This document shows, piece by piece, positions 693-39,081 of a DNA stretch of 64,000 nt (position 1 is the first letter of the stretch; every line of letters starts with the position of its first letter). The DNA is from a phage, in assembly GCA_020773975.1 (NCBI GenBank), contig GCA_020773975.1_3638.1. The stretch is one strand, 5' to 3'. Below the pieces are notes generated by a model. It was not told where the DNA came from, made no database searches, and worked only from the letters and a program-made list of their open reading frames with translations. Made by a program: the position numbers and the translations under genes.

Positions 693-942
693 CATTATGT
701 TCAGAGTGGTTCGCAAGTCCACCCCCGCACCACTACGTGCTGCTGCATGTCACCATGCAGATCAGACTATATCTTCACACTTGGTGTGTCTACCATTTCG
801 AGTGTCATCGGCTTACACCCTACTCCGCTACATTCATCACGGTTAGTCGTTAGGCATTTACGGTTGATACCGATTTAGCACGGGATTCCCTCCATAGAGG
901 ATTTCCCCGTTTAGGCAGATTTTACATGAGCAGCTATAGTTT
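693..942 (-). mobile_element. Group I intron B (250 nt, ORF-less, T4-like IA2 type core)
   Basis: On the minus strand: P cuaaacggggaaaucc, Q gggaaucccgug, R gccuaacgacuaacc, S gaagauauagucu. Exon ends with U and intron ends with G. Joining the exons gives ...VTSMG|CRSFLS..., as in T4 NrdD. Confidence 0.65.
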
Positions 943-1242
943 ACCCATACTTGTAACACGCCCGTCTGAAGAACCTGTTACCTTTTTATTCAACGGTACA
1001 GATATGAAATCTGGATAAATCCTTTCAACACAACACTCCATAGCTAATTGCTTTAAGTCGTAGTTTGGATCGCCAGGCTTCATGTTTACACCATCTTCCA
1101 AGAAGAAGATAACTTTTGGAAAAACAGGTGTGACTTTATCTTTGCCAAGTCCGTTTTTGTGAACAAGAAGATAATTCTTTGTAATCATTCTCCCAAAATA
1201 AGAAGTATCAAGCCCAAGACTCAAGGTAATAAATGGGCATTG
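943..1242 (-). CDS. nrdD: NrdD exon 3 (QCPFITL...VTSMG)
   Basis: ORF 934..1245 matches the NrdD central region (GLGKDKVTPVFPK, DPNYDLKQLAMEC). Confidence 0.7.
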
Positions 1243-1521
1243 CATTGCCCACTTTATGTTTCCATAAAGACAGACTATCTCTTAGCATCTCCTAGATGCC
1301 CTCTCCGTTTCGGAGTTGGTATTTCAACCAACCACTACACTACTGGGTTGTGCTTCACAAAATCCATTTCGCACCTTTTCGTTAGTCGTTACAACCGTCA
1401 AGCCAGATGCCTGACTGGTCACGGGATTAGCATAGCTCTATGCCTTAGCGTTCCCCGTTAGCCAGAATATATCTGACCCCACTTGTGTGGTTAGGAGAGT
1501 TTTATAACGGCCATTGTGTTA
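1243..1521 (-). mobile_element. Group I intron C (279 nt, ORF-less)
   Basis: In-frame stop directly after ...NTLMSANG; S-like gagauagucu and R-like aacgacuaacg on the minus strand; splice restores SANG|QCPF. Confidence 0.6.
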
Positions 1522-1890
1522 ACCGTTAGCACTCATCAAGGTATTTACCTGATAAAGCAATGTCTGCATAGCATCGTAAACATCTTTTTCCGTCATCTGC
1601 ATAGCTACACCTTCTGGGTCTGGCAGCCATTGCTCCTGACAAAATTTTAGATTTTTATCGTAGCTTGCCTTGGCATATTGTTTTAATCCTTCATCGATAT
1701 GGGTGTATGACTGCCCCCCGTACTGAGATGAAGAAACTGATTGCGATATTTGGCTAATAATTGTACAGGCAACGCCAATTGATTTGGGTTTTTCTATTTT
1801 TGCGTTGCCAATTTTAAAGCCGTTCTCCAACATATCTCTGTAATCTACAAGACTACAGTTGAAGTGCGGACTTATTAAGTAATCTAAATC
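1522..1890 (-). CDS. nrdD: NrdD exon 2 (DLDYLISPHFNCSLVDYRDMLENGF...SANG)
   Basis: ORF 1519..1833 plus its upstream in-frame extension matches NrdD (MLENGFKIGNA, KPKSIGVA, QYGGQS). Confidence 0.7.
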
Positions 1891-2220
1891 CTTGATTTTC
1901 CTACATTTTTATAGGCAATGACTATATCATAATCTCAAAAGAGATTCTCTGCTTTTCAACTGGTAGCGTCTCCAGCTTACTCCCGAAGGATAGTCGATAC
2001 ACATAACGAAGTCTCACTCAGAATTATTATCTTCACGGAGTGATACTTCGTCTTAGCACGGTATTACCTTGCCCCTTAGCCGAGGGGTTTAGGCTCCCTT
2101 ACTCATAATGCAGTCACCTGCTTCTGAACCGTTAGCACAGTTTTTACTGCACACCGCTTTGCAATCAGCGTTAACAGAGTTATTCAATACTGATCACTCA
2201 GTAAGGCCACGATGTTATTC
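1891..2220 (-). mobile_element. Group I intron D (330 nt, ORF-less)
   Basis: Frame breaks after GYGHVH. Minus strand carries R-like aucgacuaucc and S-like gauauaguc. Exon ends in U, intron ends in G. Splice restores HVH|DLDY. Confidence 0.6.
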
Positions 2221-2718
2221 ATGGACATGACCATACCCGTTTGTATGCCATTCAGCTAATTCTTTTGGTAGAATTTGAGTTAGTGAGACGTGCTTGCTAA
2301 GGATACCAGCAAGAAGATCACGATGGCTACTAACCACCCCACTTGGTTTATTAGCGTTTTCTTTAGTAAATTCATCGGCAGTTTGTTCTAAGAATCCCGT
2401 AATATCTGCAAACAGCTTTCCTTTACCTTCCCTAACGTTATCACGCGTTTTACGATATTCAATATAAGCCCGTGCAGCATTCTTGAGGTCAAGATCCATT
2501 AGTGAATCTTCCACAATGCGGTGAATATCACAAACAGCCACTTTCTCTTGTGGTGGTTCTGATTTTTCCAGAGTCCCATAGACTTGCTCGCCAACTGCAC
2601 ACGCCAGAGGATATGATTTCTCACCATAACCAGCAGCAATCAGAGCAGCTTCTGCCGCTCTAATAACTTTCACACCATCATAATCTTCTTCACGCCCATC
2701 ACGTTTAACAACTTTCAT
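2221..2718 (-). CDS. nrdD: NrdD exon 1 (N-terminal ATP-cone region)
   Basis: MKVVKRDGREE... ATP-cone-like N-terminus, then RDLLAGILSKH...GYGHVH matching the NrdD N-terminal domain. Confidence 0.7.
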
Positions 2719-2721
2719 TGT

Positions 2722-2991
2722 TTATTCCCCCAGTTCAGTATTAATAAACGCAATAAATTCATCTGCCGTACCAACATACACAGTATCGACACCGCACTCA
2801 TAGAAAATCCGTGGGACTGTTTTTGGGATAACAGGGGAACATTTTAAGACCAATTCCTCTTTGGTGAAGTCTTCTCCTAATTTCTTATAGATAAAGTTAA
2901 GTCCTTTTTGTTTTGCAAACTCTTTTGCTCTTACACAATGAGGGCAATTATCTTTTCCATAAATTAAAAACGTGCATTCTTTAAAGTTCAT
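2722..2991 (-). CDS. Glutaredoxin/thioredoxin-like redoxin (NrdH/NrdC-like)
   Basis: CPHC active-site motif in a ~90 aa protein between nrdD and nrdB. Start probably the internal Met (MNFKECTF) rather than 3024. Confidence 0.6.
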   Translation of the reverse strand: MNFKECTFLIYGKDNCPHCVRAKEFAKQKGLNFIYKKLGEDFTKEELVLKCSPVIPKTVPRIFYECGVDTVYVGTADEFIAFINTELGE

Positions 2992-2992
2992 C

Positions 2993-4081
2993 TTAAAAAT
3001 CCCAGATTTCTTCTTCTGCATCATTCACTGTGGTGTTAACACGATAATCTGTGTTAGACATTTCTTGGTTAGCCGTCTGCTGTAGCGCAGGATTCATCCA
3101 TACTTGCATAAACGGCAAAGGGTCTTTGGAAGGAGGGTTGAAGTCTCTATCAAATCCAAAATGATCATAGATAGGAGAACAATTATAGTCAACCCACTCT
3201 TTCAACAATGGTTCGTTAAGGCCAATGATTGCTCTACCATCACTGAAGATATAGTGACTCCAACTATACTCTTTTAGTCTAACTTCGTCAAGAATTTCTT
3301 TCAATTCATGTTTGATGGCATTAAAGCTGTTCAACCATACAGGGTCTTCTAACAGAATTTCAATAATTGCCAAGTCGTTCTTTGTGTGGAGAATCTCATC
3401 AAGCATTATTTTTTGCACAAGTTGTGCCACTTGAACAAAGATCCCTTGTTCAGCCAAGGCAAATGTGCACGCAAAACTGGATATGAACTCTATAGCTTCT
3501 AGGCCAAGCAGGGCAAACATAGCTCTCAGAATGCCTCTACGGGCTTCTTCTTTATCTATAGAAGCAGGATCCAGTCTGTATTTAGCACCAAGAACTTCCA
3601 GTTCGCGCATATATTTGACAATGACACCAGATCTGTTTAAAACTTCTTGGTTGTTTTGTACTTCCTCAATAATTTCTCGTGCATTTGGCAAACACTGTCT
3701 GACAATTTCTGAGTATGTCAAAGCATGAAGCACTTCGATTTCTGCCTGTTTCATCATCAAAGCGTATAATTCACTGTTTGTGATGAATGGGGCAAATAAA
3801 CAGATAATTGATTGCGCTGCAACACTATCAGCTTCCCATTGCCACATCAAAGTTTGCACCATAACATCATAGGTTGATTTACTGCATGTGGTAAAATCTG
3901 AAATTGATTGTACTAAATCAACTTCGTCTTCTGACCAGTCTTGCTCTTTTTGTTTTTTATATAAATCGAAAAGTTTTGGGTATTTTTTATTAATGGAGTC
4001 ATACATCCCCATCTGCTGACCAAGAAACAGAGGGTAATCCCCAGTTTTATGTGCTGTGTTTTCTGTATTGAATAATGCCAT
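2993..4081 (-). CDS. nrdB: Ribonucleotide reductase small subunit NrdB
   Basis: 362 aa; ferritin-like R2 motifs (EAIEFISSFACTFALAEQG, C-terminal tail ending EEEIWDF). Confidence 0.75.
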   Translation of the reverse strand: MALFNTENTAHKTGDYPLFLGQQMGMYDSINKKYPKLFDLYKKQKEQDWSEDEVDLVQSISDFTTCSKSTYDVMVQTLMWQWEADSVAAQSIICLFAPFITNSELYALMMKQAEIEVLHALTYSEIVRQCLPNAREIIEEVQNNQEVLNRSGVIVKYMRELEVLGAKYRLDPASIDKEEARRGILRAMFALLGLEAIEFISSFACTFALAEQGIFVQVAQLVQKIMLDEILHTKNDLAIIEILLEDPVWLNSFNAIKHELKEILDEVRLKEYSWSHYIFSDGRAIIGLNEPLLKEWVDYNCSPIYDHFGFDRDFNPPSKDPLPFMQVWMNPALQQTANQEMSNTDYRVNTTVNDAEEEIWDF

Positions 4082-4094
4082 TTAGACCTCGATG

Positions 4095-4118
4095 AAAAAG
4101 GGGCTTTCGCCCCTTAAT
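4095..4118 (-). terminator. Putative hairpin terminator/attenuator between nrdA and nrdB
   Basis: Minus strand aaggggc-gaaa-gcccc followed by a U-run. Confidence 0.35.
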
Positions 4119-4121
4119 AAA

Positions 4122-7100
4122 TTACAATGCACAACTCTCGCAGTACGGATCTTCAACTGAACTGTCTGCAATCAAAGGATAGTTCTTTTTAGTTTCTTCC
4201 TCAGCTTGTTTCTTCGCGTGAAGTTCCGCTGTCAAAGAATCACCAGCACCAACCTTAGAGTTTAGATAGTACCATGTTTTCATACCCACTTTTGTTGCCT
4301 TGATAAGATATCCTAGCTGTTCTTTCATAGAAATCTTACCATCTTTGTGTTTGGTGTAATCAAGATAGAGATCTGCACTGATCGCCTGTCCAGTAAATTT
4401 CTGGAACAGGGCATAAATATCTATCAGATCATTTGTTGGTGTATCCCAAGCAGATGTGTAGTAATCTTTTAATTTTTCATAATCAGGAACGATAAAAAGA
4501 ACCTGACCTTGAGGTGATTTTTTAAAGATCACATGATCACGAACAGGGTATATACCATTTGTGGTGTTTGTTGCCAAAGACGAACTCTCGTTCGGCATGT
4601 AGGCTTCCAGAACACTGTTCCTGATCCCACCAAAATCAACAATCTCCTTGCGCAAGGACTCCCAATCCTGTTTGAGTGTAGGATCCTTCACCACACTATC
4701 AATCGCTTTGTTGTAAGTATCAATCGGTAGCCAGCCAGATGGGTATTTTGTTTTACCAATCCACTCACAAACACCACGTTCTTTAGCTAACCGCAGACTT
4801 GCCTTATGAAGGCTGTAGCTGTGCAATTCAGCTAAATCATGTACCAACTGTTTGCTCTCAGGAGAACCATAAGGAACTCTATGTGTCGCAATATAATGTG
4901 CCACGTTTGTGATGCCAACACCAATAGACCTACGTTTTTTAACTGTGCTCTCCATATTTTCATACGGATAGGTCATGATATCCATCACGTTGTCAATCAT
5001 GAGCACAGTATAGTATGCCACATCTTCATACTCTTCTGGTTTAACCCTGCCAGCAACCAACGAGGCCAAGAAGCATAAAGCAACTTCACCATCTTCAGCA
5101 TCATACTTGAAGAGGTTACGCATATCTGAATAACCTTTTGTTGGGAGTGATATTTCTTGGCATTGCCCAGTTAGCAAGCCATTAAACACTCCCATATGAC
5201 GTTTTGGCTCAGAAAAACAGTAGGTGTCATCTCTGCGACCATCATCCTTAATACCAACTATTCTTACAAAATGCCCAGCATTCCTGTTAGGTTTGTGTTT
5301 TACCAACACCAGACGGTATAACTTCAAGCCCATTTCTAACAATTTTTGTGTTTCGGTACTTGAGATAAGTAATCTGAAAGCGTCTTTAGTGTTAAAAACC
5401 CCGTAATCTCCAGAGCCATTGTTCAAAGGAAGTAGCTGCGGTCCAGATTTGCTTGCTAAAACAATTTTGCTGTGTACCCCCACCTCTTGAAGAAGGCGTT
5501 GTATCTTAACGAGGAAATTTTTATTTACAGATGCACATGTAAGTTGTTGATTATCACCATTACGGTAAACGCACCCATCAGCATCTAAATAACCAGCAAG
5601 CCATTCAAGTCTGGAATCTAGAGTGTATTCACTGCTAGGCACAAAAAATTTTGTTTTTAAATTATCTTTATAAACCAGAGTGTGTCTATCTTGGAGTTCT
5701 TGGGTTGAAATCTTAAACTCCCCACGAAAACGGCTCAATAAATGTTTTTTACCACCATAGAGATACACTAGCTTTCTATTTTCGCTAACTTCACAACCAT
5801 CACCACTGTAAAATCCGTTTTCATAGGCTAAATCAAGTACCTTAGAACCATGTACCACTTGAGATAATGTGAATTTTACCAATTTATCCCCTGGTTGAAG
5901 ATCTATTGCACGTTTTTCAATCACCCTACCTTTCCCTACAAAACCTTCTTGGATGTAGAATTTATGGTAAGGAGTACATACAAGTTCCTGCCCAGAGTCT
6001 GTTGTCACAGTGATTAGTTTTTGGTCACTACCTGTTTTTCTGACAACAACCTCTGACCACTCTTCACCATTCCACACCTCAACACTACGATCTTTAAGGT
6101 CAGAAATGGTTTGATACCCATCCTTAGTAAGAATTTCCGTTTCTGGTGCAACACACAAATTGCTTGAATAAATAATTTCCTTAAATGGGGTGTGTCTATT
6201 CATCTCGTCAGTCCAGTAAACATAAAGTCTACCCGTTTCTGTACGCTGGGTAAGTATCTCTATTGCCAAATCTCTTGCCTTAATCCAAGTTTTTGGAATA
6301 GAAGCATCCTTGGCAATCTTATCAACTTCAGAGTCAAACTCCTCCATTGTCATAGTGAACATCCCATCATGGAGTTGTGGGGCATCTTTATAAGATACCA
6401 GCATCCAATCCAGGTTTTTCGCAACACGATTGACAAAAGATTTGTTAATACCAACGGAATAATCCATTGTGTTAATCCGCTTAGATGTCACAGTCATAGG
6501 GTTACGTAAGCGAATTAATTCATCAATTTGTGGATCAAGAGCTAAGAAAGAAACTGTTGCTGAACCACCTCTGGACTGTTGCCTATTTTCTTTTACCCCA
6601 GCATCAATACCACGATAATAAGGTAGTTTACCCATATGCTTGATTGTGTTTCCTCTAACACCATCACCAATAGAGCGAGATGCTAGATAATAACCGATAC
6701 CAGCTTGATTAACAGTCATCGTATATGCAACTTCTCGTGCAACACCGATAGATTTAGCTGTATCGTCTGCCTTAATTACACAACACGAAGCATATCCTGT
6801 TTTTCCGGTACGAAGCCCGTTAAGGTATGGTGTCGGGGCGTTGATTTTAAGATCAGACAAATATGTGTACAATTTTGTCACATCTTTAATACGACGATCC
6901 TTAGGCATATTCTTCATAACTGCCATCGCCATCCCCATAAACATCATCTGTGGGGATTCAAAAAGGATGTCATTAACAGCGTCCTTAATACCGTACTTAT
7001 CACGGAACTGTTTCAATACAGCATACCCATAAGACAGATCTTTACTATGGTCGATGACAGCTTCTAATGCTGTTAACTCCAAGCCTGTGTATTTCATATC

Positions 7101-7430
7101 TTCCCAATAGCCTGAATCAACCATACGGTGATAGAAATTTGGCAAACTTGGAATTTTTGTGAACCCACCAAAGGCTTCTTTATAAATCTGCCCGACTAAA
7201 ACTCTACCAGCCATCCGTGCATGTGCTTCATCTTTACGGCTAATACATGCATCTATAATAGCTTGGTTTACTTCTTTTGTTGTGCAACCATCATATAGTC
7301 TTTTATATGCGTCAAGAGCAATGTGTGACCAGTTGCCGTTGCCATCATCACCAAAAATGGCAGCTTTGTTAAGGCGTTCAGGGTCGAATACTACCTCTGA
7401 CCCATCGCTTTTAATAACTTTAGTAATCAA
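4122..7430 (-). CDS. nrdA: Ribonucleotide reductase large subunit NrdA, containing an intein
   Basis: 1102 aa, far longer than a normal NrdA. N-terminal ATP cone; active-site SSNL / CQEISLPT split by a ~331 aa insertion. Confidence 0.8.
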   Translation of the reverse strand: MITKVIKSDGSEVVFDPERLNKAAIFGDDGNGNWSHIALDAYKRLYDGCTTKEVNQAIIDACISRKDEAHARMAGRVLVGQIYKEAFGGFTKIPSLPNFYHRMVDSGYWEDMKYTGLELTALEAVIDHSKDLSYGYAVLKQFRDKYGIKDAVNDILFESPQMMFMGMAMAVMKNMPKDRRIKDVTKLYTYLSDLKINAPTPYLNGLRTGKTGYASCCVIKADDTAKSIGVAREVAYTMTVNQAGIGYYLASRSIGDGVRGNTIKHMGKLPYYRGIDAGVKENRQQSRGGSATVSFLALDPQIDELIRLRNPMTVTSKRINTMDYSVGINKSFVNRVAKNLDWMLVSYKDAPQLHDGMFTMTMEEFDSEVDKIAKDASIPKTWIKARDLAIEILTQRTETGRLYVYWTDEMNRHTPFKEIIYSSNLCVAPETEILTKDGYQTISDLKDRSVEVWNGEEWSEVVVRKTGSDQKLITVTTDSGQELVCTPYHKFYIQEGFVGKGRVIEKRAIDLQPGDKLVKFTLSQVVHGSKVLDLAYENGFYSGDGCEVSENRKLVYLYGGKKHLLSRFRGEFKISTQELQDRHTLVYKDNLKTKFFVPSSEYTLDSRLEWLAGYLDADGCVYRNGDNQQLTCASVNKNFLVKIQRLLQEVGVHSKIVLASKSGPQLLPLNNGSGDYGVFNTKDAFRLLISSTETQKLLEMGLKLYRLVLVKHKPNRNAGHFVRIVGIKDDGRRDDTYCFSEPKRHMGVFNGLLTGQCQEISLPTKGYSDMRNLFKYDAEDGEVALCFLASLVAGRVKPEEYEDVAYYTVLMIDNVMDIMTYPYENMESTVKKRRSIGVGITNVAHYIATHRVPYGSPESKQLVHDLAELHSYSLHKASLRLAKERGVCEWIGKTKYPSGWLPIDTYNKAIDSVVKDPTLKQDWESLRKEIVDFGGIRNSVLEAYMPNESSSLATNTTNGIYPVRDHVIFKKSPQGQVLFIVPDYEKLKDYYTSAWDTPTNDLIDIYALFQKFTGQAISADLYLDYTKHKDGKISMKEQLGYLIKATKVGMKTWYYLNSKVGAGDSLTAELHAKKQAEEETKKNYPLIADSSVEDPYCESCAL
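5163..6155 (-). mobile_element. Intein in NrdA (LAGLIDADG-type homing endonuclease domain)
   Basis: Starts with Cys (CVAPETEIL) directly after SSNL and ends ...HMGVFNGLLTGQ before the +1 Cys of CQEISLPT. LAGYLDADG motif present. Terminal GQ instead of the usual HN. Confidence 0.65.
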
Positions 7431-7705
7431 ACATTCTCCTTCTCTTCTACATCATATTTAGCCAAAAATAAAGCAGCTTCATCATTAAGATCCTCTTTTA
7501 AAGAGTCTCTATCATCTGCAAGGATATTAATTACTTTTCCTGTGTATGCGTCATAATAAACATCATCATACATCTTGCTATCATCTATAAGATCATTAAA
7601 ATATAACCACCCAGCATAATGATATTTATCATCAAAACCGCGATCTTTCCATTTGGTCTTTTCTCGCGCCATTATGCCCCCAGACCAAACATATCGCCAA
7701 GCCAT
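7427..7705 (-). CDS. Hypothetical protein
   Basis: ORF in operon context; no recognisable motif. Confidence 0.35.
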   Translation of the reverse strand: MAWRYVWSGGIMAREKTKWKDRGFDDKYHYAGWLYFNDLIDDSKMYDDVYYDAYTGKVINILADDRDSLKEDLNDEAALFLAKYDVEEKENV

Positions 7706-8148
7706 GATTCATCTTTAGAATCAAAGTTAATATCTAAACTTTGCTTTCTTTCTCCACGCTTTGTGTATTTTCTGACATTGACTTTTTCTGCCACAGGAAG
7801 ATCGTATGGAAGATCAATAACAAATTCCATATCCTTTTCTGAATACATCTCTACATCAAGAATATCTATACCATTATAGATTCCTGCGTATGGATAATCA
7901 TTCCGCATATCACCTACAAAAATTGTTGTTTTTCTATAGGTTGATGGGAAATTGGCACAACGAACATTCTTGTCGTGTAGCATTGTAATATGCTTAGGAA
8001 GTCCATCAGCATCACTGACCTGGAATCCAATAGCATACAACGCAGCACGAAGTTGATTTTCTTCTTTAATATTAAAACCGGGGATTGTGCGAAGAAAGTC
8101 CAGCGTCACAGAAATATGCTGTGTAGGTTTACGTTTTGTTTTTTTCAT
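7672..8148 (-). CDS. Hypothetical protein
   Basis: ORF with upstream promoter-like element; no recognisable motif. Confidence 0.35.
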   Translation of the reverse strand: MKKTKRKPTQHISVTLDFLRTIPGFNIKEENQLRAALYAIGFQVSDADGLPKHITMLHDKNVRCANFPSTYRKTTIFVGDMRNDYPYAGIYNGIDILDVEMYSEKDMEFVIDLPYDLPVAEKVNVRKYTKRGERKQSLDINFDSKDESWLGDMFGLGA

Positions 8149-8206
8149 ATATTCTCCACCACATTTGCAAACTAGGGGACAAATAGCCCCTATACATCAT
8201 GCAAAC

Positions 8207-8235
8207 ATAATATGTATTTTTATTAAATTTGTCAA
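8207..8235 (-). promoter_or_regulatory. Sigma70-like promoter (TTGACA-17-TATTAT) for the leftward genes
   Basis: Consensus -35 and near-consensus -10 with 17 bp spacing on the minus strand. Confidence 0.4.
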
Positions 8236-10118
8236 CCTGCCACAACATTGTTGGGAACTAGTTGGCGGTATTGTACCCACCCACGTAGATTTCCTGACCA
8301 CATATTTCCTTTTCTATCCATATGCGTCACACCGTCACTTGCCTGTCCATCCCACCACAATGAAGCCTCATTCTCCAACATAGGTGTTGCAACATGCTCA
8401 AAAGGAGATGCGTGTACCTTATCACCACTTGTTAGCTTTTTATAGATATCAAGGGCTTTATCCTTAGTGTTGTTAAGCACGCGATAAGATACTTGTGCAC
8501 AACAAGACACAGAAATAGCAATTGCCTCATCAACACGTAGCATCACAGGCTCGTTGTTTTCGTCTAAAACACAATACCCATGAAATTCTCCAACACCATC
8601 ATCAACATCAATTGTGTAGAGGTGCTCTACATATGGGGTGTGCCACTGACCAGGTTCTAATGGCTCAGGTACAGACTCATCCACAGCTTGTTTCATGAGA
8701 GATGCTAGTTTATGGATCGTCGGGTCTGCATCTCCATCTGCACGAAGATGGAAAAAATTATTCCAATCCGTAGCAGTAACAACAGTTTTCATCCTCTGGA
8801 ACGGTTCCAGTAAGCGATTTGCCACCTGCTTGTGGTATCCAGCTTGTGAGTATGCTTCGGCAAAACGTGATGCACTTAAAGCCGCCAATTTCCACCAATC
8901 CTCTGGGGAATATCCAGCATCTATTTCAGCATTGTGATTGCCATCATCTTGCATACCAGGTTTATTCTTACCAAATTGAACAGGCATGGCAGGATTTTTT
9001 CGTACTTGCTCAATCATCTTAGAGATTGGAATTGCTCTGCTGCTCATAGCATTCCTGCTAAACAGTCTATGCGTCATAAGTTCACAGTTCCCACTGATAA
9101 ATACGACACCTTCCCTTCGAACAACCACGTAGGAGGTGTCTACACTTACACAATACACCTTCCCTACATAGTCTTGGTACTCGAAGATATCTTTATCCTT
9201 CCTTAAACTGATGTAGTTCGTAACCTTAAATGAGCATTTATACAGAGAGCCATACTTACGAATATTCACAGAGTCACCATTCAGGTGAGCTAACACCTGA
9301 ATTTGGTTAATCAGTGTTTTGGATGTGGTGTTATACTCCATGTTGTCAATATTGCCGTCTGAGAGTAGCAATGCTCTCTTAAATAAGCGGTACTGCTCAA
9401 TATTTAACCCTCTGATATATTCTGGTAATTTCTTCTCCCCTTCTTCAGTGTAACATGCTTCTGTTAATGGGTTTTTATTAAAACGGATAACTATATCGTC
9501 CCCATATGTAGAGGTGCTATATTCGTATCCACACTCTTCAAGGATACGTGTAACTTCCTGTGCCTTCCGGGGCTTTTTAAAGTGGAAGTTTACCTTATCC
9601 CCCTTTTCTGGAGTATGTCCATCAGCAGCAAACCAAACACAAAATTCAATCTCTGCATCAGAAAGGTCACACTTTACATCCATTACTCCAGATTGCTCAA
9701 TACGTAATGTCCCGTAGTCTTTTACAAGTTCCTCGGCAAGAATCGTCTTACTCACAAATTTACCCCCAGTAGTCCTTTTTTTCGTGAGGACTCGATGCTT
9801 GTCTGTAACAAGCATGGGGAACTTCTTCTTGTTCAGAGATACCATCCGATGATGGCCTTCGTTCTCTATGTGTGCTGAGGGGGTTACAAAGCTAATAGTC
9901 CCTGTTGTATCATCATACTGTGCTACCTTGGCATTGAGTGCAAATACTTCCTTGAAAGACCTGAACTCTGGTAATTCAGAGTTAATCTGACTGAGTATCT
10001 CTGTCTTCTCGTCAAAGCAGTGAATAATGCGGGGGTATTCCAGCTCAAAAGTGGTAATTCTGATACCTTGTGGGGAAATACTGTCAGCTACGATACGCAC
10101 AGAAATCTGATTATTCAT
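8232..10118 (-). CDS. ThyX-like (flavin-dependent thymidylate synthase family) protein containing an intein
   Basis: Extein sequence TTFELEYPRIIH / CELMTHRLFSRNAMSSR resembles the ThyX core (RHR-type motif, here THR) and FHLRADGDA resembles the ThyX LRAD motif. Family assignment is from memory of motifs. Confidence 0.45.
   Translation of the reverse strand: MNNQISVRIVADSISPQGIRITTFELEYPRIIHCFDEKTEILSQINSELPEFRSFKEVFALNAKVAQYDDTTGTISFVTPSAHIENEGHHRMVSLNKKKFPMLVTDKHRVLTKKRTTGGKFVSKTILAEELVKDYGTLRIEQSGVMDVKCDLSDAEIEFCVWFAADGHTPEKGDKVNFHFKKPRKAQEVTRILEECGYEYSTSTYGDDIVIRFNKNPLTEACYTEEGEKKLPEYIRGLNIEQYRLFKRALLLSDGNIDNMEYNTTSKTLINQIQVLAHLNGDSVNIRKYGSLYKCSFKVTNYISLRKDKDIFEYQDYVGKVYCVSVDTSYVVVRREGVVFISGNCELMTHRLFSRNAMSSRAIPISKMIEQVRKNPAMPVQFGKNKPGMQDDGNHNAEIDAGYSPEDWWKLAALSASRFAEAYSQAGYHKQVANRLLEPFQRMKTVVTATDWNNFFHLRADGDADPTIHKLASLMKQAVDESVPEPLEPGQWHTPYVEHLYTIDVDDGVGEFHGYCVLDENNEPVMLRVDEAIAISVSCCAQVSYRVLNNTKDKALDIYKKLTSGDKVHASPFEHVATPMLENEASLWWDGQASDGVTHMDRKGNMWSGNLRGWVQYRQLVPNNVVAG
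9087..10019 (-). mobile_element. Intein in ThyX-like gene (~311 aa, endonuclease-like domain)
   Basis: Begins CFDEKTEIL, ends ...VVFISGN followed by +1 Cys; degenerate LAGLIDADG-like segments (FCVWFAADGH, LLLSDGNID). Confidence 0.55.
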
Positions 10119-10438
10119 TATAAAGCCCCTTCCAGTTTCTTTAGAAAGTCATCTTTAAAACTATCTACCAGTTTCATATATTCTTCTGCAATCATATCCT
10201 CAATAATCCCACGGCGTTCAGAATATTTTTTATCGAAGGAGATCATTTCTTCGATTTCTTCTGCGGTGAAGATTTTTAAGTGCATATCGTTAATAATTTT
10301 AGTAACAAATTCCTCTGTGATACCCAGATCTTCAATTGTGATCCCTGTTCCTTCAAGGCCAAGGATAGGGATGATTTTCCCTGCACGAGCAATCATTTCA
10401 TTCTTAAGGTATTCAAAAGATTCTTTTTTCAACATCAT
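10118..10438 (-). CDS. Hypothetical protein
   Basis: ORF only. Confidence 0.35.
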   Translation of the reverse strand: MMLKKESFEYLKNEMIARAGKIIPILGLEGTGITIEDLGITEEFVTKIINDMHLKIFTAEEIEEMISFDKKYSERRGIIEDMIAEEYMKLVDSFKDDFLKKLEGAL

Positions 10439-10632
10439 CTTCCTCTCTTTTTTATCTTAAACTTTGTTTGCGGATCCATACCCGCTTTAAAAACAAGATA
10501 TCTTGTAAGAATATCATTACACATATCACTGGTAGCTTTAAAAGAGATTAAGAAGTCCTCATCCTCTGTGAAAACTTCCACCCAATCCCCATATTTTACT
10601 ACAAAATCACCTTTTGTGCATCGTCTAATCAT
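10435..10632 (-). CDS. Hypothetical small protein
   Basis: ORF only; translationally coupled to neighbours. Confidence 0.3.
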   Translation of the reverse strand: MIRRCTKGDFVVKYGDWVEVFTEDEDFLISFKATSDMCNDILTRYLVFKAGMDPQTKFKIKKRGR

Positions 10633-11234
10633 GCTATGTCTAAAACAAAATCACGTATTGTATACCAATCATCTGTTTCAAGGTCTAGGGATGTTTTTAA
10701 TTCTTCAGACTGATCATAAGGTGTTTTAAATTTAATTTTAATAACCTCTGGACCAAACTGATTAAGGAACTCATTCCTATCATCAATAATAACATCAACA
10801 TCTACCCCAGCTTTATGCTTTGTTGCATAGAAAGCATGACCGGAACCAAGCTCTAAGCTGAAAAACTCTTCTGTTTCTCTTTTTAGAAAGCGCACTTTAG
10901 ATGAAAAATGACCTTTCATACAATAAGAAACAAAATGATTAAAATGACCAGCTTTAGCCCATGCAGCCACTGCTTCAACTGCACCGGGGAGAGGCTTCAA
11001 CTTATCGTAAAGATAGGGATCCTCCCAAAACTCATAAGGACTAAGCTGATGCACCTTCGCAGGTGGGAAATACTTAGAAACATTGTAATACAGCATACCT
11101 TGCTGGTTTGGTGGTGGTAATGATAAATCCATTTTAACACCATAAACCTTTTCCAACCACTCAATCCAAGGTGTCCCAGAATCAACAAATGTCAAATCCA
11201 CATCAATTCCGATCTTAAGCGTATTCACCTTCAA
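10629..11234 (-). CDS. HAD-superfamily 5'(3')-deoxyribonucleotidase-like protein
   Basis: N-terminal DxD-type motif (GIDVDLTF) typical of HAD phosphatases and nucleotidases. Confidence 0.45.
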   Translation of the reverse strand: MKVNTLKIGIDVDLTFVDSGTPWIEWLEKVYGVKMDLSLPPPNQQGMLYYNVSKYFPPAKVHQLSPYEFWEDPYLYDKLKPLPGAVEAVAAWAKAGHFNHFVSYCMKGHFSSKVRFLKRETEEFFSLELGSGHAFYATKHKAGVDVDVIIDDRNEFLNQFGPEVIKIKFKTPYDQSEELKTSLDLETDDWYTIRDFVLDIA

Positions 11235-11844
11235 ACACTCCCCCTGCTGCCAAAATGTTTTCTAAAACTTTAGCCTTATCCATACAATATTTGTGGATCC
11301 TTTCTTCCACGCAGATAGCATCCTCACTGTCCAAATCCATTTTGATCTTCTCTACTTGGCCTTTCAACCAAGCATGGTGTGCTTCCAGTTCTGTTTCAAA
11401 CGTACCTATGTGCTTAGGATAAGGTTTTGCTAAGACAACCGCTCGCCACTTTTCTTTATTTCTTACTTTAACTGTCCCTATGAGGCCACCACTCTTTGTT
11501 CTTGCTCGTATTGGAAAGTTCACAGCCAACCACTTTGGAACAAAAACCGCGTTTTCAGGATTAAAAATGGTTGTGCCTACCTCCAGGCTAATGTATCTTC
11601 CTGGGTATCCATATTCAAGGAAATATTTTTCAAAATTGCTAAATGTTAACCATTCATCGCAAACTGATTGGTTGGATTCTTCCTCTTGTCCATACACATG
11701 TTCGATAAGATATTTCCAAGCTGCATACGCTCCACGGGACTTACCTTTTAAAGCCTCTTGATCTGAATCGTCCACAGCAATACCGTACAATAAAATACCT
11801 TTCTTATTCATTGTGAAAGCTCCGCAGCGGTAAACACGAACCAC
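11215..11844 (-). CDS. AP2-domain DNA-binding protein (freestanding homing-endonuclease-like)
   Basis: GTVKVRNKEKWRAVV...IGTFETELEAHHAW matches the AP2/ERF-like fold common in phage homing endonucleases; no clear HNH motif. Confidence 0.4.
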   Translation of the reverse strand: MVRVYRCGAFTMNKKGILLYGIAVDDSDQEALKGKSRGAYAAWKYLIEHVYGQEEESNQSVCDEWLTFSNFEKYFLEYGYPGRYISLEVGTTIFNPENAVFVPKWLAVNFPIRARTKSGGLIGTVKVRNKEKWRAVVLAKPYPKHIGTFETELEAHHAWLKGQVEKIKMDLDSEDAICVEERIHKYCMDKAKVLENILAAGGVFEGEYA

Positions 11845-12410
11845 TTATGGATTGACTTGGCACAGTCTTCCATTTTACCATCAATATTCTCGAAATCTCT
11901 TTCGTACCCTCGGATCCCATCTAAATAGAGCCAATTACGACTATCATTTCCCCAGTCACAACCTTCTCTGTGAATACGTGCCAAGAAGAATTTACCACCA
12001 GTTTCATAAGCATAGTTGGAAAGCTCAAGGATCTCTTCCTTAAAACCACCATCTGAAAAAACAACCAACCATGCCTCTTGATGGTTTTTCTTTAAATTCT
12101 CTACAGCAGCTTTGCCAAAAGCATTCTGTCCGAAAATTGGTTTAATCACATTCTCTGAACAATGGATCATCCATTCTCGTGGGGAGACATGTTCTCCATC
12201 AATTTGCAGGTAAGGACAAGGTTTTTCTTTGTATCTACGGTCATAAAGACTGTTCCACAAATCTTTTGAGACTCCAGCAGATCTGATAGCAACTTCAAAA
12301 AGGAGTTTCTTCACTTCTTCATGAAACACACCAGAGATGTTCTCACTCAAATAAGAACAAATAGCGTCTTTTCCAGCACCTGCTGGTGCATTTAAAACAA
12401 GAATATGCAT
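11808..12410 (-). CDS. P-loop nucleotide kinase (dNMP kinase-like)
   Basis: Walker A-like NAPAGAGKD near the N-terminus; ~200 aa. Confidence 0.45.
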   Translation of the reverse strand: MHILVLNAPAGAGKDAICSYLSENISGVFHEEVKKLLFEVAIRSAGVSKDLWNSLYDRRYKEKPCPYLQIDGEHVSPREWMIHCSENVIKPIFGQNAFGKAAVENLKKNHQEAWLVVFSDGGFKEEILELSNYAYETGGKFFLARIHREGCDWGNDSRNWLYLDGIRGYERDFENIDGKMEDCAKSIHKWFVFTAAELSQ

Positions 12411-12424
12411 TCAATCTCCCACAA

Positions 12425-13399
12425 TCAGATGATATTAACAAGAGTATTAGCCATCTCTTCTTTGGTACGGATATTACGTCTATCACGCATAACAGATCCA
12501 CAACATTCGCAACGGTAAGCCTGGAATTTTGATAGATATGTTGTCCCTACCTTACCATCCATAACTGACAAATTATCAGAATTACATCTTACGCAACGAA
12601 GTTCAACACTATCATCCGGCTCATTAAAAAGTGTAACGTTAGGGTGTTTTTTCATAAAAGGTCTTACTTTAAGGTAAATACCTTCCAGTGTCGGAATATC
12701 ACCAATGTTATAATATTCCATTTCCTCAAACGCCTTAACATCTCCGTGGCAGCATCGTTTCCACAAAGAGATCCCTTCGTGGTGTCTTTTACGAGCCTCT
12801 AGTTGAAAGTAGTTACACGCAGCTTCTAAAGAGTTAGAAGGTAACGAAAAAGCATTCTTTAACTCTGCAAGAGTATCAATAACAATATATGGTGATGGGG
12901 GGTTCATACCATGAAAAGCAAATCTTTGGTTTGCCCATCCTTTATCAAATTTAGCATTGTGTGCAATGAAAATATCACACTCATCCAAAATGTGCCACAA
13001 ATCTTCCACAAGCTCTCTGTCATCATGGATATCTGTTTTAAATGTTTCGTAGTCAGGCAATTTACGACTTAATATTGCTGGGTTGTCTAACCACTTCCCT
13101 GCCCATGTCAACATATATGGTTCGCTCTCTACGTGAGACGGAGAGATGTTTTCTTTAATTCTTCTAAATACCCAAGCCAACGTTGGTGCTACTTCCACAT
13201 CACCCAGAAAAATCTTTGCCCCTGGCTTTTTAGTGAGGGTCTCCACAATCTGTTTTGATGCCTCTGTATTCTGAGCGTGAGCTTTAAGAACTAACCTGAT
13301 ATGTGACTCTTTACTTTCTTTTCCCAGATACCGACGAGCTATTTCTCTGTTGCTCAAACCTTTAGACTTTAACTCTAGAATTTCTTCTGCACTAAGCAT
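12425..13399 (-). CDS. DEDD-type 3'-5' exonuclease
   Basis: DnaQ-like Exo motifs (DECDIFIAHNAKFD, YH...D). Confidence 0.5.
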   Translation of the reverse strand: MLSAEEILELKSKGLSNREIARRYLGKESKESHIRLVLKAHAQNTEASKQIVETLTKKPGAKIFLGDVEVAPTLAWVFRRIKENISPSHVESEPYMLTWAGKWLDNPAILSRKLPDYETFKTDIHDDRELVEDLWHILDECDIFIAHNAKFDKGWANQRFAFHGMNPPSPYIVIDTLAELKNAFSLPSNSLEAACNYFQLEARKRHHEGISLWKRCCHGDVKAFEEMEYYNIGDIPTLEGIYLKVRPFMKKHPNVTLFNEPDDSVELRCVRCNSDNLSVMDGKVGTTYLSKFQAYRCECCGSVMRDRRNIRTKEEMANTLVNII

Positions 13400-13611
13400 T
13401 ACACCTCTCTAACAAACTCGATGATATCGTTAACAGCAAAATCACGGACATCACCCTTGTCGATATCGTATGCCCTCATTAGCCATTGAGGTTTTTTGTG
13501 ATAAGGGGTCGTTCCAAACCACATTTTTGGGTCTAAAACATTTCTGTAGCCACACTTACCTTTCCAGTTTTTATAATAAAAACGTAGAGGGTTATTCAAA
13601 TCTCCAGCCAA
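13399..13611 (-). CDS. Hypothetical small protein
   Basis: ORF only. Confidence 0.3.
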   Translation of the reverse strand: MAGDLNNPLRFYYKNWKGKCGYRNVLDPKMWFGTTPYHKKPQWLMRAYDIDKGDVRDFAVNDIIEFVREV

Positions 13612-25222: not shown

Positions 25223-25253
25223 AAATAAATTTTATATAATATATTATTATATA

Positions 25254-25384: not shown

Positions 25385-25427
25385 TAATAGATCTTATATG
25401 TTAGTTTAATTTGATCAGTTAGTATTG

Positions 25428-37494: not shown

Positions 37495-38823
37495 TTGAGT
37501 AAAGTATTTGGACCTGCCAGTCCTAAACAAAAAATGATTTTGGAGAGTAAAGCCCAAATTCTAATAATTGGCGGGGCCGCCGGGTGTTTGTCTAAAGACC
37601 ACGAGGTGTTGACACCATCTGGCTGGATTAAGATATCAGAATGGTCAGGGCAGGACATTCTGCAATATGATAAAGCCACTGGGGAGGCTAAATTTATCCC
37701 TCCTTTAGAGTTTGTTAAACTCCCTTGCGACAAACTTACAAGAATAGAAGGTAATGGCATTTGTCAAGAGCTATCTGACGAACATACTGTGATTTATAAA
37801 CCAGACTATAAATCACAGCCAAGAACACTTTCTTTTTCTGAAGTGGCAGAAAGACATAACAACTCTGTTAAAAAAGGTTGGACAGGTAAGTTCATAACTA
37901 CATTTAACTATGATGGGCCTGGGATAGACATGACAGAAGGGGAATTAAGGCTTCAGGTTGCTGTCATGGCTGATGGGAGAGTTGTTAAAGAAGGGAAAGA
38001 TAATTATACACAGATGCGCTTTGCTAAAAAGCGTAAATATGACCGCTTAATCGAACTTTGTAAAAAGTTTGGATTAAGATATGAAGACAGAGGATCAAAA
38101 CCCAGTGAAAGATATACCACTGGGGAACAGTACGAGGTCATTGTATGGCCTAAATATCCTGATAAAAAATTTACAGAGAAATACTATCAGTGTTCAAATG
38201 AACAACTGGAGATAATACTTGATGAGATTTTTCATTGGGATGGTTCTTTTTGTAAGCCATATGGCGGTAAAACACATAACAGCTTTACAGGTAGATATTT
38301 TACTGCTCATAAGACGAACGCTGATTTTATTCAGTTTGTAGGATCTTCTCTTGGTTATAATACCACCATAAGCCATGACACAAGAAGTGGAAAGGACAGT
38401 TATACTGTTAATATTATGGCTAGAGGAAAAGGATTAAGGTCACTGGCTAATAAAGACAGAAAAGCTGAGTTTAAAGCGTTTACACCTACGGATGGGTTTA
38501 AATACTGCTTTGTAACACAAACAGGTTTCTTTGTTACCAGACTGGAAGATTGTGTGGTTGTCACTGGGAATAGTGGAAAATCATATCTCCTACAATTGAT
38601 GCCGCTTGCTTATGTCGATGACCCGCAGACAGCATGTATAATGTTTCGTAGGACAACACCTCAATTGACAGGTGCAGGTGGACTTTTTGATACAGCGAAA
38701 AGTATTTATTTGCAACTCGATAAGGAATGGAAGCCGAAGTTCAGGGAGAAAGCTCTGGAAGCAATTTTCCCATCTGGGGCAAAGGTGTTGTGGAGACACA
38801 TGGAGTATGAGAATAACAAATTA
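37495..38823 (+). CDS. terL: Terminase large subunit, exon 1 (contains an in-frame intein; 3' boundary ~38806-38823)
   Basis: Walker A GAAG|SGKSY restored across the intein; then ...AIFPSGAKVLWRHMEY. TTG start after GGAGG. ORF continues as intron read-through to 38841. Confidence 0.65.
37585..38571 (+). mobile_element. Intein in terminase Walker A motif (329 aa, LAGLIDADG-like domain)
   Basis: Starts Cys (CLSKDHEVLTPSGW), ends ...CVVVTGN followed by Ser. Removal gives a perfect P-loop GAAGSGKS. Confidence 0.7.
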
Positions 38824-39081
38824 GATCATCAGGGTGAATAGCTTGCCCTTCGTGCCTATAACGGTGGAACTCCCTATGGGAAAATACCGTGCCACAGAAT
38901 ATGGAAATATAAACTCTGGGTGTAACGACTATCTCCGATGAGTGTAGGAGAGTAGAATCACAAGCGATTGGTGATCCAAACGGCACGCCAAGGATGGAAG
39001 ATATAGTCTGTTCCACATGGAAACATGTGGCGGGTGTTTTAGCACACCGCCTCAGTGTAGCGAACTGAGGGGACAATAAGT
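38824..39081 (+). mobile_element. Group I intron 1 in terL (~260 nt, ORF-less; boundaries +/-17 nt)
   Basis: R-like guguaacgacuaucu (~38918) and S gaagauauagucu (~38998). The frame resumes in ...QYTFIGFDEG (Walker B-like). Confidence 0.55.

What the first reader, a model, noticed from the sequence alone, without database searches (positions are those of the whole stretch)
5163..6155. Three inteins in one window (NrdA, ThyX-like, TerL); the NrdA intein ends in Gly-Gln instead of His-Asn
Inteins sit in NrdA, the ThyX-like protein (9087-10019) and TerL (37585-38571). Each begins with Cys and is followed by a Cys/Ser +1 residue at a conserved active-site position. The NrdA intein's C-terminal block aligns to the usual HNFxANGxxxHN as HMGVFNGLLTGQ, so the terminal Asn is replaced by Gln and the penultimate His by Gly, implying an atypical or slow C-terminal cleavage chemistry.
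Basis: partly seen in the sequence, partly recalled or inferred. Interest (0 to 1): 0.6.

Follow-up and report, generated by a model that had tools for sequence, protein, structure and literature searches.

The report
Phage RNR intein ending in glutamine
The three inteins are real and their boundaries are exact, but the Gly-Gln end of the NrdA intein is the normal state of a known, widespread family of viral ribonucleotide-reductase inteins, so this is a new member of a known kind and not new chemistry.

Summary
All three inteins sit at the stated coordinates. Deleting each one restores colinearity with an uninterrupted ortholog: NrdA against phage TH18 (96.7% nt identity), and ThyX-like and TerL against phage PVP-SE1. 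The NrdA intein (331 aa, 5163-6155, minus strand) lies between the equivalents of E. coli R1 Leu438 and the radical Cys439, and it ends ...HMGVFNGLLTGQ|C. No alternative boundary gives His-Asn.

The Gly-Gln end is a family trait. In 80 distinct homologous RNR inteins from phages and giant viruses, the last residue is Gln in 50 and Asn in 30. The penultimate residue is never His (Gly 69, Ser 10, Met 1). Block B Thr-x-x-His and a block F Cys are essentially invariant.

Gln-terminated inteins are documented, and the Chilo iridescent virus RNR intein is reported to splice better with Gln than with Asn. Phage inteins with a penultimate Gly are also known to splice well. "Atypical" is therefore fair; "slow" is not supported.

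The ThyX-like and TerL inteins also lack the penultimate His (both end Gly-Asn). The most likely mechanism is ordinary class 1 splicing with Gln cyclisation, carried by an intact LAGLIDADG homing endonuclease. Interest is low to moderate.

The parts
4122..7430 (-). NrdA (class Ia RNR alpha subunit) precursor ORF, 1102 aa, including the intein
   Evidence: ORF list. Pfam Ribonuc_red_lgC 1.5e-94, Ribonuc_red_lgN and ATP-cone.
6156..7430 (-). N-extein, aa 1-425, ending ...IIYSSNL
   Evidence: Colinear with TH18 NrdA. Aligns to E. coli R1 up to L438.
5163..6155 (-). NrdA intein, 331 aa (HINT splicing domain with a nested LAGLIDADG endonuclease)
   Evidence: TIGR01445 intein_Nterm 48 bits. Pfam LAGLIDADG_3 8.5e-12. 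AF2 pLDDT 92.4. Foldseek top hits are the TliVMA, PI-SceI and PI-PfuI inteins.
6153..6155 (-). Cys1 codon (TGT), the block A nucleophile
   Evidence: Cys1 is present in all family members.
5964..5975 (-). Block B Thr61-Pro-Tyr-His64 (T-x-x-H)
   Evidence: In the family, Thr in 79/80 and His in 80/80.
5793..5831 (-). First LAGLIDADG motif, LAYENGFYSGDGC
   Evidence: 44 of 47 full-length family members have two such motifs.
5571..5609 (-). Second LAGLIDADG motif, LEWLAGYLDADGC
5163..5231 (-). Blocks F and G: DDTYC313FSEPKRH320MGVFNGLLT329G330Q331
   Evidence: Family census: Cys at F:4 in 80/80, His at F:11 in 66/80, Thr at G:5 in 69/80, G:6 is Gly 69 / Ser 10 / Met 1, G:7 is Gln 50 / Asn 30.
5163..5165 (-). 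Terminal Gln331 codon (CAA)
   Evidence: Two base changes are needed to reach any Asn codon. The same codon is in the Logan contig.
5160..5162 (-). Cys+1 codon (TGC), equivalent to E. coli R1 Cys439, the thiyl-radical cysteine
   Evidence: The phmmer alignment to 2xax_A places SSNLCQEISLPT on SNLCLEIALPT.
4122..5162 (-). C-extein, aa 757-1102, plus the stop codon
8232..10118 (-). ThyX-like (Thy1 family) precursor ORF, 628 aa
   Evidence: Pfam Thy1 27.7 bits against a cutoff of 24.8.
9087..10019 (-). ThyX-like intein, 311 aa: C...ISGN followed by C
   Evidence: Colinearity with PVP-SE1 ThyX. LAGLIDADG_3 8.8e-6. 94.6% identical copy in TH18-like phages and 45.6% in Acinetobacter phage B9 ThyX, which also ends ISGN|C.
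37495..38835 (+). TerL exon 1, which holds the intein
37585..38571 (+). TerL intein, 329 aa, inside Walker A: GGAAG|C...VTGN|SGKS
   Evidence: Colinearity with PVP-SE1 TerL. No Pfam or NCBIfam hit, but AF2 pLDDT 91.7 with top folds TliVMA and PI-SceI inteins. Homologs end ...TGN|SGKS in 19 of about 20.

Best explanation
The NrdA insertion is a functional class 1 intein of the viral RNR family that normally ends in Gly/Ser-Gln or Gly/Ser-Asn, and it carries an intact LAGLIDADG homing endonuclease.

Inferred mechanism:
1. The 1102-aa precursor folds its HINT domain. Cys426 (intein Cys1), helped by block B Thr61 and His64, converts the Leu425-Cys426 peptide bond into a thioester.
2. Cys757 (+1), which is the future thiyl-radical cysteine of the enzyme, takes over the N-extein by trans-thioesterification.
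3. [quoted passage not shown] This releases the intein with a six-membered aminoglutarimide ring instead of the usual succinimide. With no penultimate His, the block F His320 is the likely helper.
4. An S-to-N shift makes the Leu-Cys peptide bond and yields an active 771-aa NrdA.

RNR is inactive until splicing, because the insertion splits the Asn-x-Cys-x-Glu catalytic loop. The excised intein then acts as a homing endonuclease that cuts intein-less nrdA alleles, such as that of phage TH18, during co-infection and is copied in by repair.

Shown here: boundaries, site, fold, conservation of residues, and presence/absence polymorphism. Inferred: every chemical step and the endonuclease activity.

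The ThyX-like and TerL insertions are two further, unrelated LAGLIDADG inteins of a clade that ends in Gly-Asn.
For: - Boundaries: exact colinearity with the intein-less TH18 allele.
- Site: the +1 Cys equals E. coli C439.
- Profiles: TIGR01445 and LAGLIDADG_3 matches.
- Fold: AF2 pLDDT 92.4, pTM 0.90, with intein-endonuclease folds as top PDB hits.
- Spread of homologs: BFVD top hits are intein-bearing RNRs of phage phiTE (52% identity, TM 0.95) and Marseillevirus LCMAC101 (38%). There are 348 phage records with homologs, including the ICP1 NrdA annotated as an intein-containing precursor, and 59 IMG/VR loci including giant-virus MAGs.
- Census of 80 distinct inteins: Cys1 80/80, Thr-x-x-His about 80/80, Cys F:4 80/80, terminal Gln 50 / Asn 30, no penultimate His. 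Such conservation at no more than 57% identity argues for selection on splicing.
- Mobility: two LAGLIDADG motifs with their acidic residues, presence/absence between phages 96.7% identical, and a cluster of substitutions at the junction.
- Literature: Gln cyclisation gives aminoglutarimide (PMC8175363). The CIV RNR intein splices better with Gln (PMC4031507). Penultimate Gly is common and efficient in phage inteins, and the block F His can substitute (PMC5050341).
Against: - Splicing and endonuclease activity were not tested for this protein.
- No relative is closer than 57% identity, so its own activity cannot be inferred from a near-identical tested intein.
- The phage also encodes NrdD, so loss of NrdA might be tolerated.
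- I could not obtain the CIV intein sequence, so the link to the one biochemically tested RNR Gln intein rests on shared host protein, shared terminus and giant-virus homologs.
- The invariant Cys at block F:4 is unusual for class 1 (usually Asp; PMC2807308) and its role is unexplained.
Confidence: 0.85

Rival explanations
1. The NrdA intein is a decaying, splicing-impaired element. Loss of His-Asn would have disabled C-terminal cleavage, leaving NrdA as a dead precursor, with the phage relying on NrdD or the host RNR.
For: It has a non-canonical G:6 and G:7. The phage also carries nrdD/nrdG. No direct splicing data exist.
Against: Gly-Gln is the majority state in 80 divergent homologs that keep every other splicing residue. 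The ORF is intact with both LAGLIDADG motifs. The exteins are 98.6% identical in protein to the intein-less TH18 NrdA with no disabling changes. Gln-terminated RNR and PolII inteins splice experimentally.
Confidence: 0.06
2. The family uses a modified, class-3-like or hybrid route. The invariant block F Cys313, with Thr329 at G:5 and an aromatic residue at B:12, would take part in catalysis, either as a relay thioester or as a redox gate through a disulfide with Cys1 or Cys+1. C-terminal resolution would then depend less on the terminal residue, which would explain why Gln and Asn interchange.
For: Cys at F:4 in 80/80 and Thr at G:5 in 69/80 match two of the three WCT hallmark positions of class 3 inteins. 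B:12 is Phe in 75 and Trp in 3. F:4 is usually Asp in class 1 (PMC2807308). Trp-to-Phe at B:12 retained partial splicing in the Bethlehem DnaB intein. Disulfides between catalytic Cys residues regulate other Gln-terminated inteins.
Against: Cys1 is invariant and Thr-x-x-His is canonical, so the standard first step is available. Class 3 is defined by the lack of an N-terminal nucleophile. No biochemical evidence exists for this family.
Confidence: 0.08
3. The boundaries are misplaced or the terminal codon is a sequencing error, and the true intein ends in a canonical His-Asn.
For: Cys codons flank both junctions, so DNA alignment alone leaves an ambiguity of one codon. The GenBank annotation of the ICP1 homolog places the intein two codons downstream.
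Against: Only the C1...Q331|C+1 register gives nucleophiles at both junctions and restores NLCxE. There is no His-Asn within the last 20 residues. CAA needs two changes to become an Asn codon. An identical sequence is found in an SRA assembly. Gln is shared by 50 homologs.
Confidence: 0.01

Closest known systems
Chilo iridescent virus (IIV-6) RNR large-subunit (RIR1) intein, the prototype glutamine-type intein (Pietrokovski 1998; Amitai, Dassa & Pietrokovski 2004, as cited in PMC4031507, PMC549080 and PMC1635734)
   Same: It has the same host protein (RNR large subunit), is a full-length intein in a virus, and has a native C-terminal Gln. Allelic mini-inteins are reported in other iridoviruses, and the family found here likewise contains both full-length and mini forms and members in giant-virus RNRs. 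From memory only, the CIV intein starts CVAPET and ends ...FNGILTGQ like this family. That is a lead, not a test.
   Different: The host here is a bacteriophage NrdA of bacterial type (LPT context), not a eukaryote-type R1. Identity to the giant-virus members I could retrieve is only 36-42%. I could not retrieve the CIV sequence, so allelic identity of the insertion site is not shown.
NrdA inteins of Vibrio phage ICP1 (ORF203, annotated intein-containing precursor) and Pectobacterium phage phiTE
   Same: Same insertion point SSNL|C, same CVAPET start and ...FNGILTGQ|CQEI end, similar length (328-337 aa), LAGLIDADG type, 52% identity, and TM-score 0.95 to the phiTE model.
   Different: They are only about 52% identical. 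The ICP1 record places the intein two codons off. None is known to me to have been tested biochemically.
Pyrococcus abyssi, P. horikoshii and Methanoculleus marisnigri PolII inteins (C-terminal Gln)
   Same: The terminal Gln is cyclised to aminoglutarimide in step 3, and both Cys1 and Cys+1 are present.
   Different: They are unrelated in sequence (PDB 2lcj matches only at E 0.26), sit in a different host protein, are archaeal thermophile inteins, and keep the penultimate His. For them Gln is slower than Asn, whereas the RNR type is reported to prefer Gln.
Mycobacteriophage class 1 inteins lacking the penultimate His (for example the Bethlehem RDF intein with Gly), TerL P-loop inteins and thymidylate synthase inteins (Kelley et al. 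2016, PMC5050341)
   Same: They have a penultimate Gly, are phage-borne, and insert in the TerL Walker A motif and in thymidylate synthase. The block F His is proposed to take over the role of the missing His.
   Different: They come from different phage lineages and intein families. Those inteins end in Asn.
Class 3 (WCT) inteins, prototype the mycobacteriophage Bethlehem DnaB intein (PMC2807308)
   Same: Cys at block F:4 and Thr at G:5. A phage origin has been proposed for the class.
   Different: Class 3 inteins lack an N-terminal nucleophile, have Trp at B:12 and usually Ser or Thr at +1. This family has Cys1, Phe at B:12 and Cys+1.

Membership tests
Intein (HINT-domain protein-splicing element, class 1) | In-frame insertion in a conserved host protein that is absent from orthologs, with exteins colinear after removal | tested here: met
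   NrdA against TH18. ThyX-like and TerL against PVP-SE1.
Intein (HINT-domain protein-splicing element, class 1) | Cys or Ser at intein position 1, and Cys, Ser or Thr at +1 | tested here: met
   The pairs are C/C for NrdA, C/C for ThyX-like and C/S for TerL.
Intein (HINT-domain protein-splicing element, class 1) | Block B Thr-x-x-His | tested here: met
   NrdA has T61-P-Y-H64, with family conservation of about 80/80. ThyX-like has TDKH and TerL has SDEH (read from the sequence).
Intein (HINT-domain protein-splicing element, class 1) | Block G His-Asn at the C-terminus | tested here: not met
   NrdA ends Gly-Gln, and ThyX-like and TerL end Gly-Asn. Both departures are documented functional variants, so this does not exclude membership.
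Intein (HINT-domain protein-splicing element, class 1) | HINT fold | tested here: met
   NrdA intein: AF2 pLDDT 92.4, top PDB folds TliVMA, PI-SceI and PI-PfuI. TerL intein: pLDDT 91.7, same top folds. The ThyX-like intein was not modelled.
Intein (HINT-domain protein-splicing element, class 1) | Autocatalytic excision with ligation of the exteins | not testable with these tools
   This needs expression and SDS-PAGE or MS.
Glutamine-type viral RNR (CIV RIR1-type) inteins | Inserted in the RNR large subunit and ending in Gln before a Cys+1 | tested here: met
Glutamine-type viral RNR (CIV RIR1-type) inteins | Sequence homology and same insertion site as the CIV RIR1 intein itself | not testable with these tools
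   The CIV sequence and the primary papers are not held. The indirect evidence is homologs at the same site in giant-virus MAG RNRs and in Marseillevirus LCMAC101.
LAGLIDADG (DOD) homing endonuclease, intein-borne | Two LAGLIDADG motifs with a conserved acidic residue, and an endonuclease fold nested in the HINT domain | tested here: met
   Motifs at aa 109-121 and 183-195. Pfam LAGLIDADG_3 8.5e-12. Fold matches to PI-SceI, PI-PfuI and I-DmoI.
LAGLIDADG (DOD) homing endonuclease, intein-borne | Site-specific cleavage of the intein-less allele, and homing | not testable with these tools
   Only circumstantial evidence: presence/absence between phages 96.7% identical, and clustered substitutions at the junction.
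Class 3 (WCT) inteins | No N-terminal nucleophile | tested here: not met
   Cys1 is present in all 80 family members.
Class 3 (WCT) inteins | Trp B:12, Cys F:4, Thr G:5 triplet | tested here: inconclusive
   Cys F:4 in 80/80 and Thr G:5 in 69/80, but B:12 is Phe in 75/80 and Trp in only 3/80.

The most novel reading that the evidence does not exclude
The CIV-type RNR intein family, to which this intein belongs, could be a mechanistically distinct subclass. Its invariant block F:4 Cys would act together with Thr G:5, an aromatic B:12 and no G:6 His, either as a relay nucleophile or as a redox gate with Cys1 or the radical Cys+1. This would make the identity of the terminal residue (Gln or Asn) nearly irrelevant and would couple maturation of ribonucleotide reductase to thiol redox state. 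The family could also be the class 1 relative from which class 3 inteins arose in phages.
Probability: 0.1. Interest if true: 0.5.

Novelty: new member of a known kind. Interest (0 to 1): 0.25.

Why it matters
For intein biology this is a confirmation, not a discovery. It adds a divergent allele, no more than 57% identical to anything retrieved, of the glutamine-type RNR intein in an E. coli-infecting Vequintavirinae-like phage. A nearly identical intein-less sister phage (TH18) is available.

That pair is a convenient natural system in a tractable host for three things: measuring intein homing, testing Gln against Asn and Gly against His at the C-terminus, and probing the unexplained invariant block F cysteine.

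The family census made here may be a useful summary of which residues are constrained: Gln 50 / Asn 30, never a penultimate His, always Cys at F:4, and repeated Gln/Asn switches even though the switch needs two base changes.

For annotation, the inteins and introns of this phage group are currently recorded as fragmented "terminase large subunit (x3)" or as over-long "thymidylate synthase" genes.

Tried and rejected
- Alternative boundaries. A one-codon shift gives the same product but leaves no nucleophiles. The two-codon shift used in the ICP1 GenBank record gives Ala1 and Glu+1, which cannot splice. Rejected.
- Sequencing error at the Gln codon. Rejected on three grounds: the two-base distance to any Asn codon, the identical SRA contig, and 50 homologs with Gln.
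- The three inteins as paralogs that share a Gly by descent. The NrdA intein is unrelated to the other two (best E 0.002 over 18 aa), and the ThyX-like and TerL inteins are only weakly related to each other (E 2.5e-4, 22% identity). The penultimate Gly is a trait of each family separately.
- Class 3 membership. Rejected because Cys1 is present and B:12 is Phe.
- Getting the CIV RIR1 sequence or the primary papers. The Amitai 2004 DOI, PMC3133030 and PMC3801215 are not held. Text searches for CVAPET, "CIV RIR1" and NGILTGQ found nothing useful. A second protein search seeded with a giant-virus member returned no named iridovirus entry; that database returned no hit longer than about 590 aa, so full-length intein-bearing RNRs seem to be out of its reach. 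BFVD listed Marseillevirus but no iridovirus among the top 50.
- Sequence search of the PDB with the NrdA intein gave only marginal hits (PI-PfuI at E 0.0011). The fold search was needed.
- The spliced ThyX-like protein has no PDB sequence match, so its intein site could not be mapped onto a structure.
- GC content of the inteins does not differ from their hosts: 0.39 against 0.40 for NrdA. There is no compositional sign of recent foreign origin.
Full report
**1.

The minus-strand ORF 4122-7430 encodes a 1102-aa class Ia ribonucleotide reductase alpha subunit (Pfam Ribonuc_red_lgC 1.5e-94, with Ribonuc_red_lgN and ATP-cone) interrupted by LAGLIDADG_3 and Intein_splicing matches. It reads C-VAPETEIL...HMGVFNGLLTG-Q and is followed by CQEISLPT. 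The terminal codon is CAA and the +1 codon is TGC.

The window is a Vequintavirinae-like phage, 95-97% identical in nucleotides to Escherichia phage vB_EcoM_TH18. TH18 has an intein-less nrdA of 772 codons. Deleting the 331 codons from the window gene gives a gap-free alignment with 11 amino-acid differences. The empty site reads SSNL|CCEISLPT against SSNL|[intein]|CQEISLPT.

Both junctions begin with a Cys codon, so DNA alignment leaves a one-codon ambiguity. Only the stated register puts a nucleophile at position 1 and at +1. No His-Asn lies near the end. A Logan assembly of SRR16760863 contains a contig 100% identical to window 2232-16118, so the Gln codon is reproduced there.

**2. The site**

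A phmmer alignment of the spliced sequence to E. coli R1 (2xax_A) places SSNLCQEISLPT on SNLCLEIALPT. The intein therefore lies between L438 and C439, and its +1 Cys is the thiyl-radical cysteine, flanked by N437 and E441 (residue roles from established RNR knowledge). The enzyme cannot be active before splicing.

**3. The other two inteins**

The uninterrupted orthologs from Salmonella phage PVP-SE1 give exact empty sites:
- ThyX-like: PRIIH|SELMTHR against PRIIH|[C...ISGN]|CELMTHR, nt 9087-10019.
- TerL: GGAAG|SGKS against GGAAG|[C...VTGN]|SGKS, nt 37585-38571, inside Walker A.

The TerL insertion matches no Pfam or NCBIfam model. Its AlphaFold model, built on 28 homologs, is confident (pLDDT 91.7), and its best PDB folds are the TliVMA and PI-SceI inteins.

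The three inteins are not copies of one another. The NrdA intein is unrelated to the other two, and the ThyX-like and TerL inteins share only 22% identity (E 2.5e-4). All three nevertheless have Gly instead of the penultimate His. Relatives of the ThyX-like intein (Acinetobacter phage B9...HISGN|C) and of the TerL intein (19 of about 20 homologs...TGN|SGKS) share this feature.

**4. What the NrdA intein is**

It matches TIGR01445 (48 bits). Its model (pLDDT 92.4, pTM 0.90) has intein-endonuclease folds as its top PDB matches (TliVMA, PI-SceI, PI-PfuI). Against BFVD it matches the intein-bearing RNRs of Pectobacterium phage phiTE (52% identity, TM 0.95) and Marseillevirus LCMAC101 (38%).

Homologs are numerous:
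- 87 proteins in the metagenome protein search, best identity 54%.
- 348 phage records, including ICP1, whose NrdA is annotated as an intein-containing precursor, plus phiTE and Acinetobacter, Aeromonas, Rheinheimera and Caulobacter phages.
- 59 IMG/VR loci, many from giant-virus MAGs with eukaryote-type R1 exteins.

From these I extracted 80 distinct complete inteins, all at the same catalytic-loop motif. Nearly all lie at NL|C; one giant-virus subgroup lies one codon downstream.

| Position | Residue counts in 80 inteins |
|---|---|
| Position 1 | Cys 80 |
| Block B:7 | Thr 79 |
| Block B:10 | His 80 |
| Block B:12 | Phe 75, Trp 3 |
| Block F:4 | Cys 80 |
| Block F:11 | His 66 |
| Block G:5 | Thr 69 |
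| Block G:6 (penultimate) | Gly 69, Ser 10, Met 1; never His |
| Block G:7 (terminal) | Gln 50, Asn 30 |

A rough neighbour-joining tree with Fitch parsimony needs about 11 Gln/Asn switches. This number is approximate because the tree is poorly resolved. The Gly-Gln terminus is thus the commonest state of a well-conserved family, not a lesion.

**5. Comparison with the literature**

- A review of splicing mechanisms states that inteins with C-terminal Gln, Asp or Glu use the same four steps, with cyclisation of that residue in step 3. It reports that Gln is slow in the Pab and Mma PolII inteins, but that the Chilo iridescent virus RNR intein splices more efficiently with its native Gln than with Asn (PMC4031507).
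- Gln cyclisation gives an aminoglutarimide, and the block F His may assist it (PMC8175363).
- CIV carries a full-length glutamine-type intein in RIR1, and other iridoviruses carry allelic mini-inteins (PMC549080 and PMC1635734).
- Phage class 1 inteins often lack the penultimate His. A Gly-to-His change slowed the Bethlehem RDF intein, and the block F His can substitute for the missing His. TerL P-loop inteins and thymidylate synthase inteins are well known in phages (PMC5050341).

I could not obtain the CIV sequence itself. Allelic membership with CIV is therefore inferred from the shared host protein, the shared terminus and the giant-virus homologs. My recollection that the CIV intein begins CVAPET and ends ...LTGQ is only a lead.

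**6. Mechanism and mobility**

The best-supported account is standard class 1 splicing:
1. An acyl shift at Cys1, assisted by Thr61 and His64.
2. Transfer of the N-extein to Cys+1.
3. Cyclisation of Gln331, helped by His320.
4. An S-to-N shift that forms the Leu-Cys peptide bond.

Homing by the nested LAGLIDADG enzyme would follow. Its two motifs, LAYENGFYSGDGC and LEWLAGYLDADGC, are intact.

Evidence for mobility is circumstantial. The intein is present here and absent in TH18 although the flanks are 96.7% identical. Six of the 81 extein nucleotide differences cluster within 10 nt of the junction. The +2 Gln of the window allele is shared with other intein-bearing alleles (ICP1, P0001, P0012, P0017, P0021), whereas TH18 has Cys there. 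This fits either co-conversion or adaptation of the extein.

**7. What remains odd**

The invariant Cys at block F:4 is unusual. That position is usually Asp in class 1 inteins, and Cys there is the hallmark of class 3 (WCT) inteins (PMC2807308). This family also has Thr at G:5 but Phe at B:12, and it always keeps Cys1, so it is not class 3. Whether the Cys has a catalytic or a redox role is open. This is the only route by which the finding could become more than ordinary, and I give it about 10%.

**8. Verdict**

The intein is a new, divergent member of a known kind. The interest score is 0.25.

The window is also very rich in self-splicing elements: three inteins, up to six group I introns and several homing-endonuclease ORFs. 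These are listed under things noticed in passing.

Noticed in passing
window 38836-40756 (+): Besides the intein, terL is split by three intervening sequences. Intron A is 38836-39080 (Rfam group I, sub-threshold at 33.8 bits). A 33-nt mini-exon at 39081-39113 encodes LQYTFIGFDEG. Intron B is 39114-39462 (RF00028, 67.9 bits) and is absent from TH18. A 982-nt insertion at 39775-40756 has group I-like halves. Exon order was confirmed against the uninterrupted PVP-SE1 TerL.
   Followed up: partly
window 39804-40589 (+): A 261-aa ORF inside the third terL insertion has an HNH_3 domain and helix-turn-helix motifs. It is probably an intron-borne homing endonuclease. TH18 annotates its counterpart as an HNH homing endonuclease.
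   Followed up: partly
window 743-2230 (-): The nrdD region holds up to three group I introns: 743-981 (74.7 bits), 1252-1531 (41 bits, E 1.7e-8) and 1899-2230 (21.7 bits, E 0.013). The last two coincide with window-specific insertions relative to TH18, at 1243-1518 and 1891-2218.
   Followed up: partly
window 11215-11844 (-): A 209-aa ORF fills a 598-nt stretch (11234-11831) that is missing from TH18. It has no Pfam hit. It may be a free-standing mobile endonuclease gene, but this is unproven.
   Followed up: partly
L024, L026, L027, L028, L036, L039, L041 (giant-virus MAG loci): A subgroup of the same intein family sits one codon downstream, after the catalytic Cys: SSNLC|CVRGDT...ITSQ|CEI. 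The residue after the radical Cys is then a Cys that serves as +1. This is a one-residue shift of insertion site within one intein family.
   Followed up: no
TH18 / OK136180.1 at about 19950-20801 (outside the window): The closest relatives carry a fourth intein, in the DNA primase/helicase, 29.7% identical to the ThyX-like intein (H142).
   Followed up: no
P0095, P0100, P0106, P0109, P0117, P0118 and others: Inteins related to the giant-virus branch of this family also occur in RNR small-subunit (PF00268) proteins.
   Followed up: no
L061 (Vibrio phage ICP1, HQ641347) 2001-2990: The GenBank mat_peptide for the ICP1 NrdA intein (2007-2990) is two codons downstream of the mechanistically required boundaries (2001-2984). 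As annotated, the intein would start with Ala and be followed by Glu.
   Followed up: yes
window 8232-10118 (-): The spliced ThyX-like protein matches Pfam Thy1 only weakly (27.7 bits), reads THR where ThyX has RHR, and has no sequence match in the PDB. It may be a divergent flavin-dependent thymidylate synthase or something else.
   Followed up: partly
window 29416-34686 (+): There is a cluster of 14 tRNA genes.
   Followed up: no
window 5157-5170 and 6150-6160: Six of the 81 nucleotide differences between the window and TH18 nrdA exteins lie within 10 nt of the intein junction. The +2 residue is Gln here and in several other intein-bearing alleles, but Cys in intein-less TH18. This suggests co-conversion or adaptation of the extein.
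   Followed up: partly
window 24893-25452, compared with the TH18 record ends: The window runs across the end of the linear TH18 record (133882) and continues into TH18 at about 79864, reversed. The TH18 and OK1361xx records are therefore arranged or assembled differently from the window.
   Followed up: no
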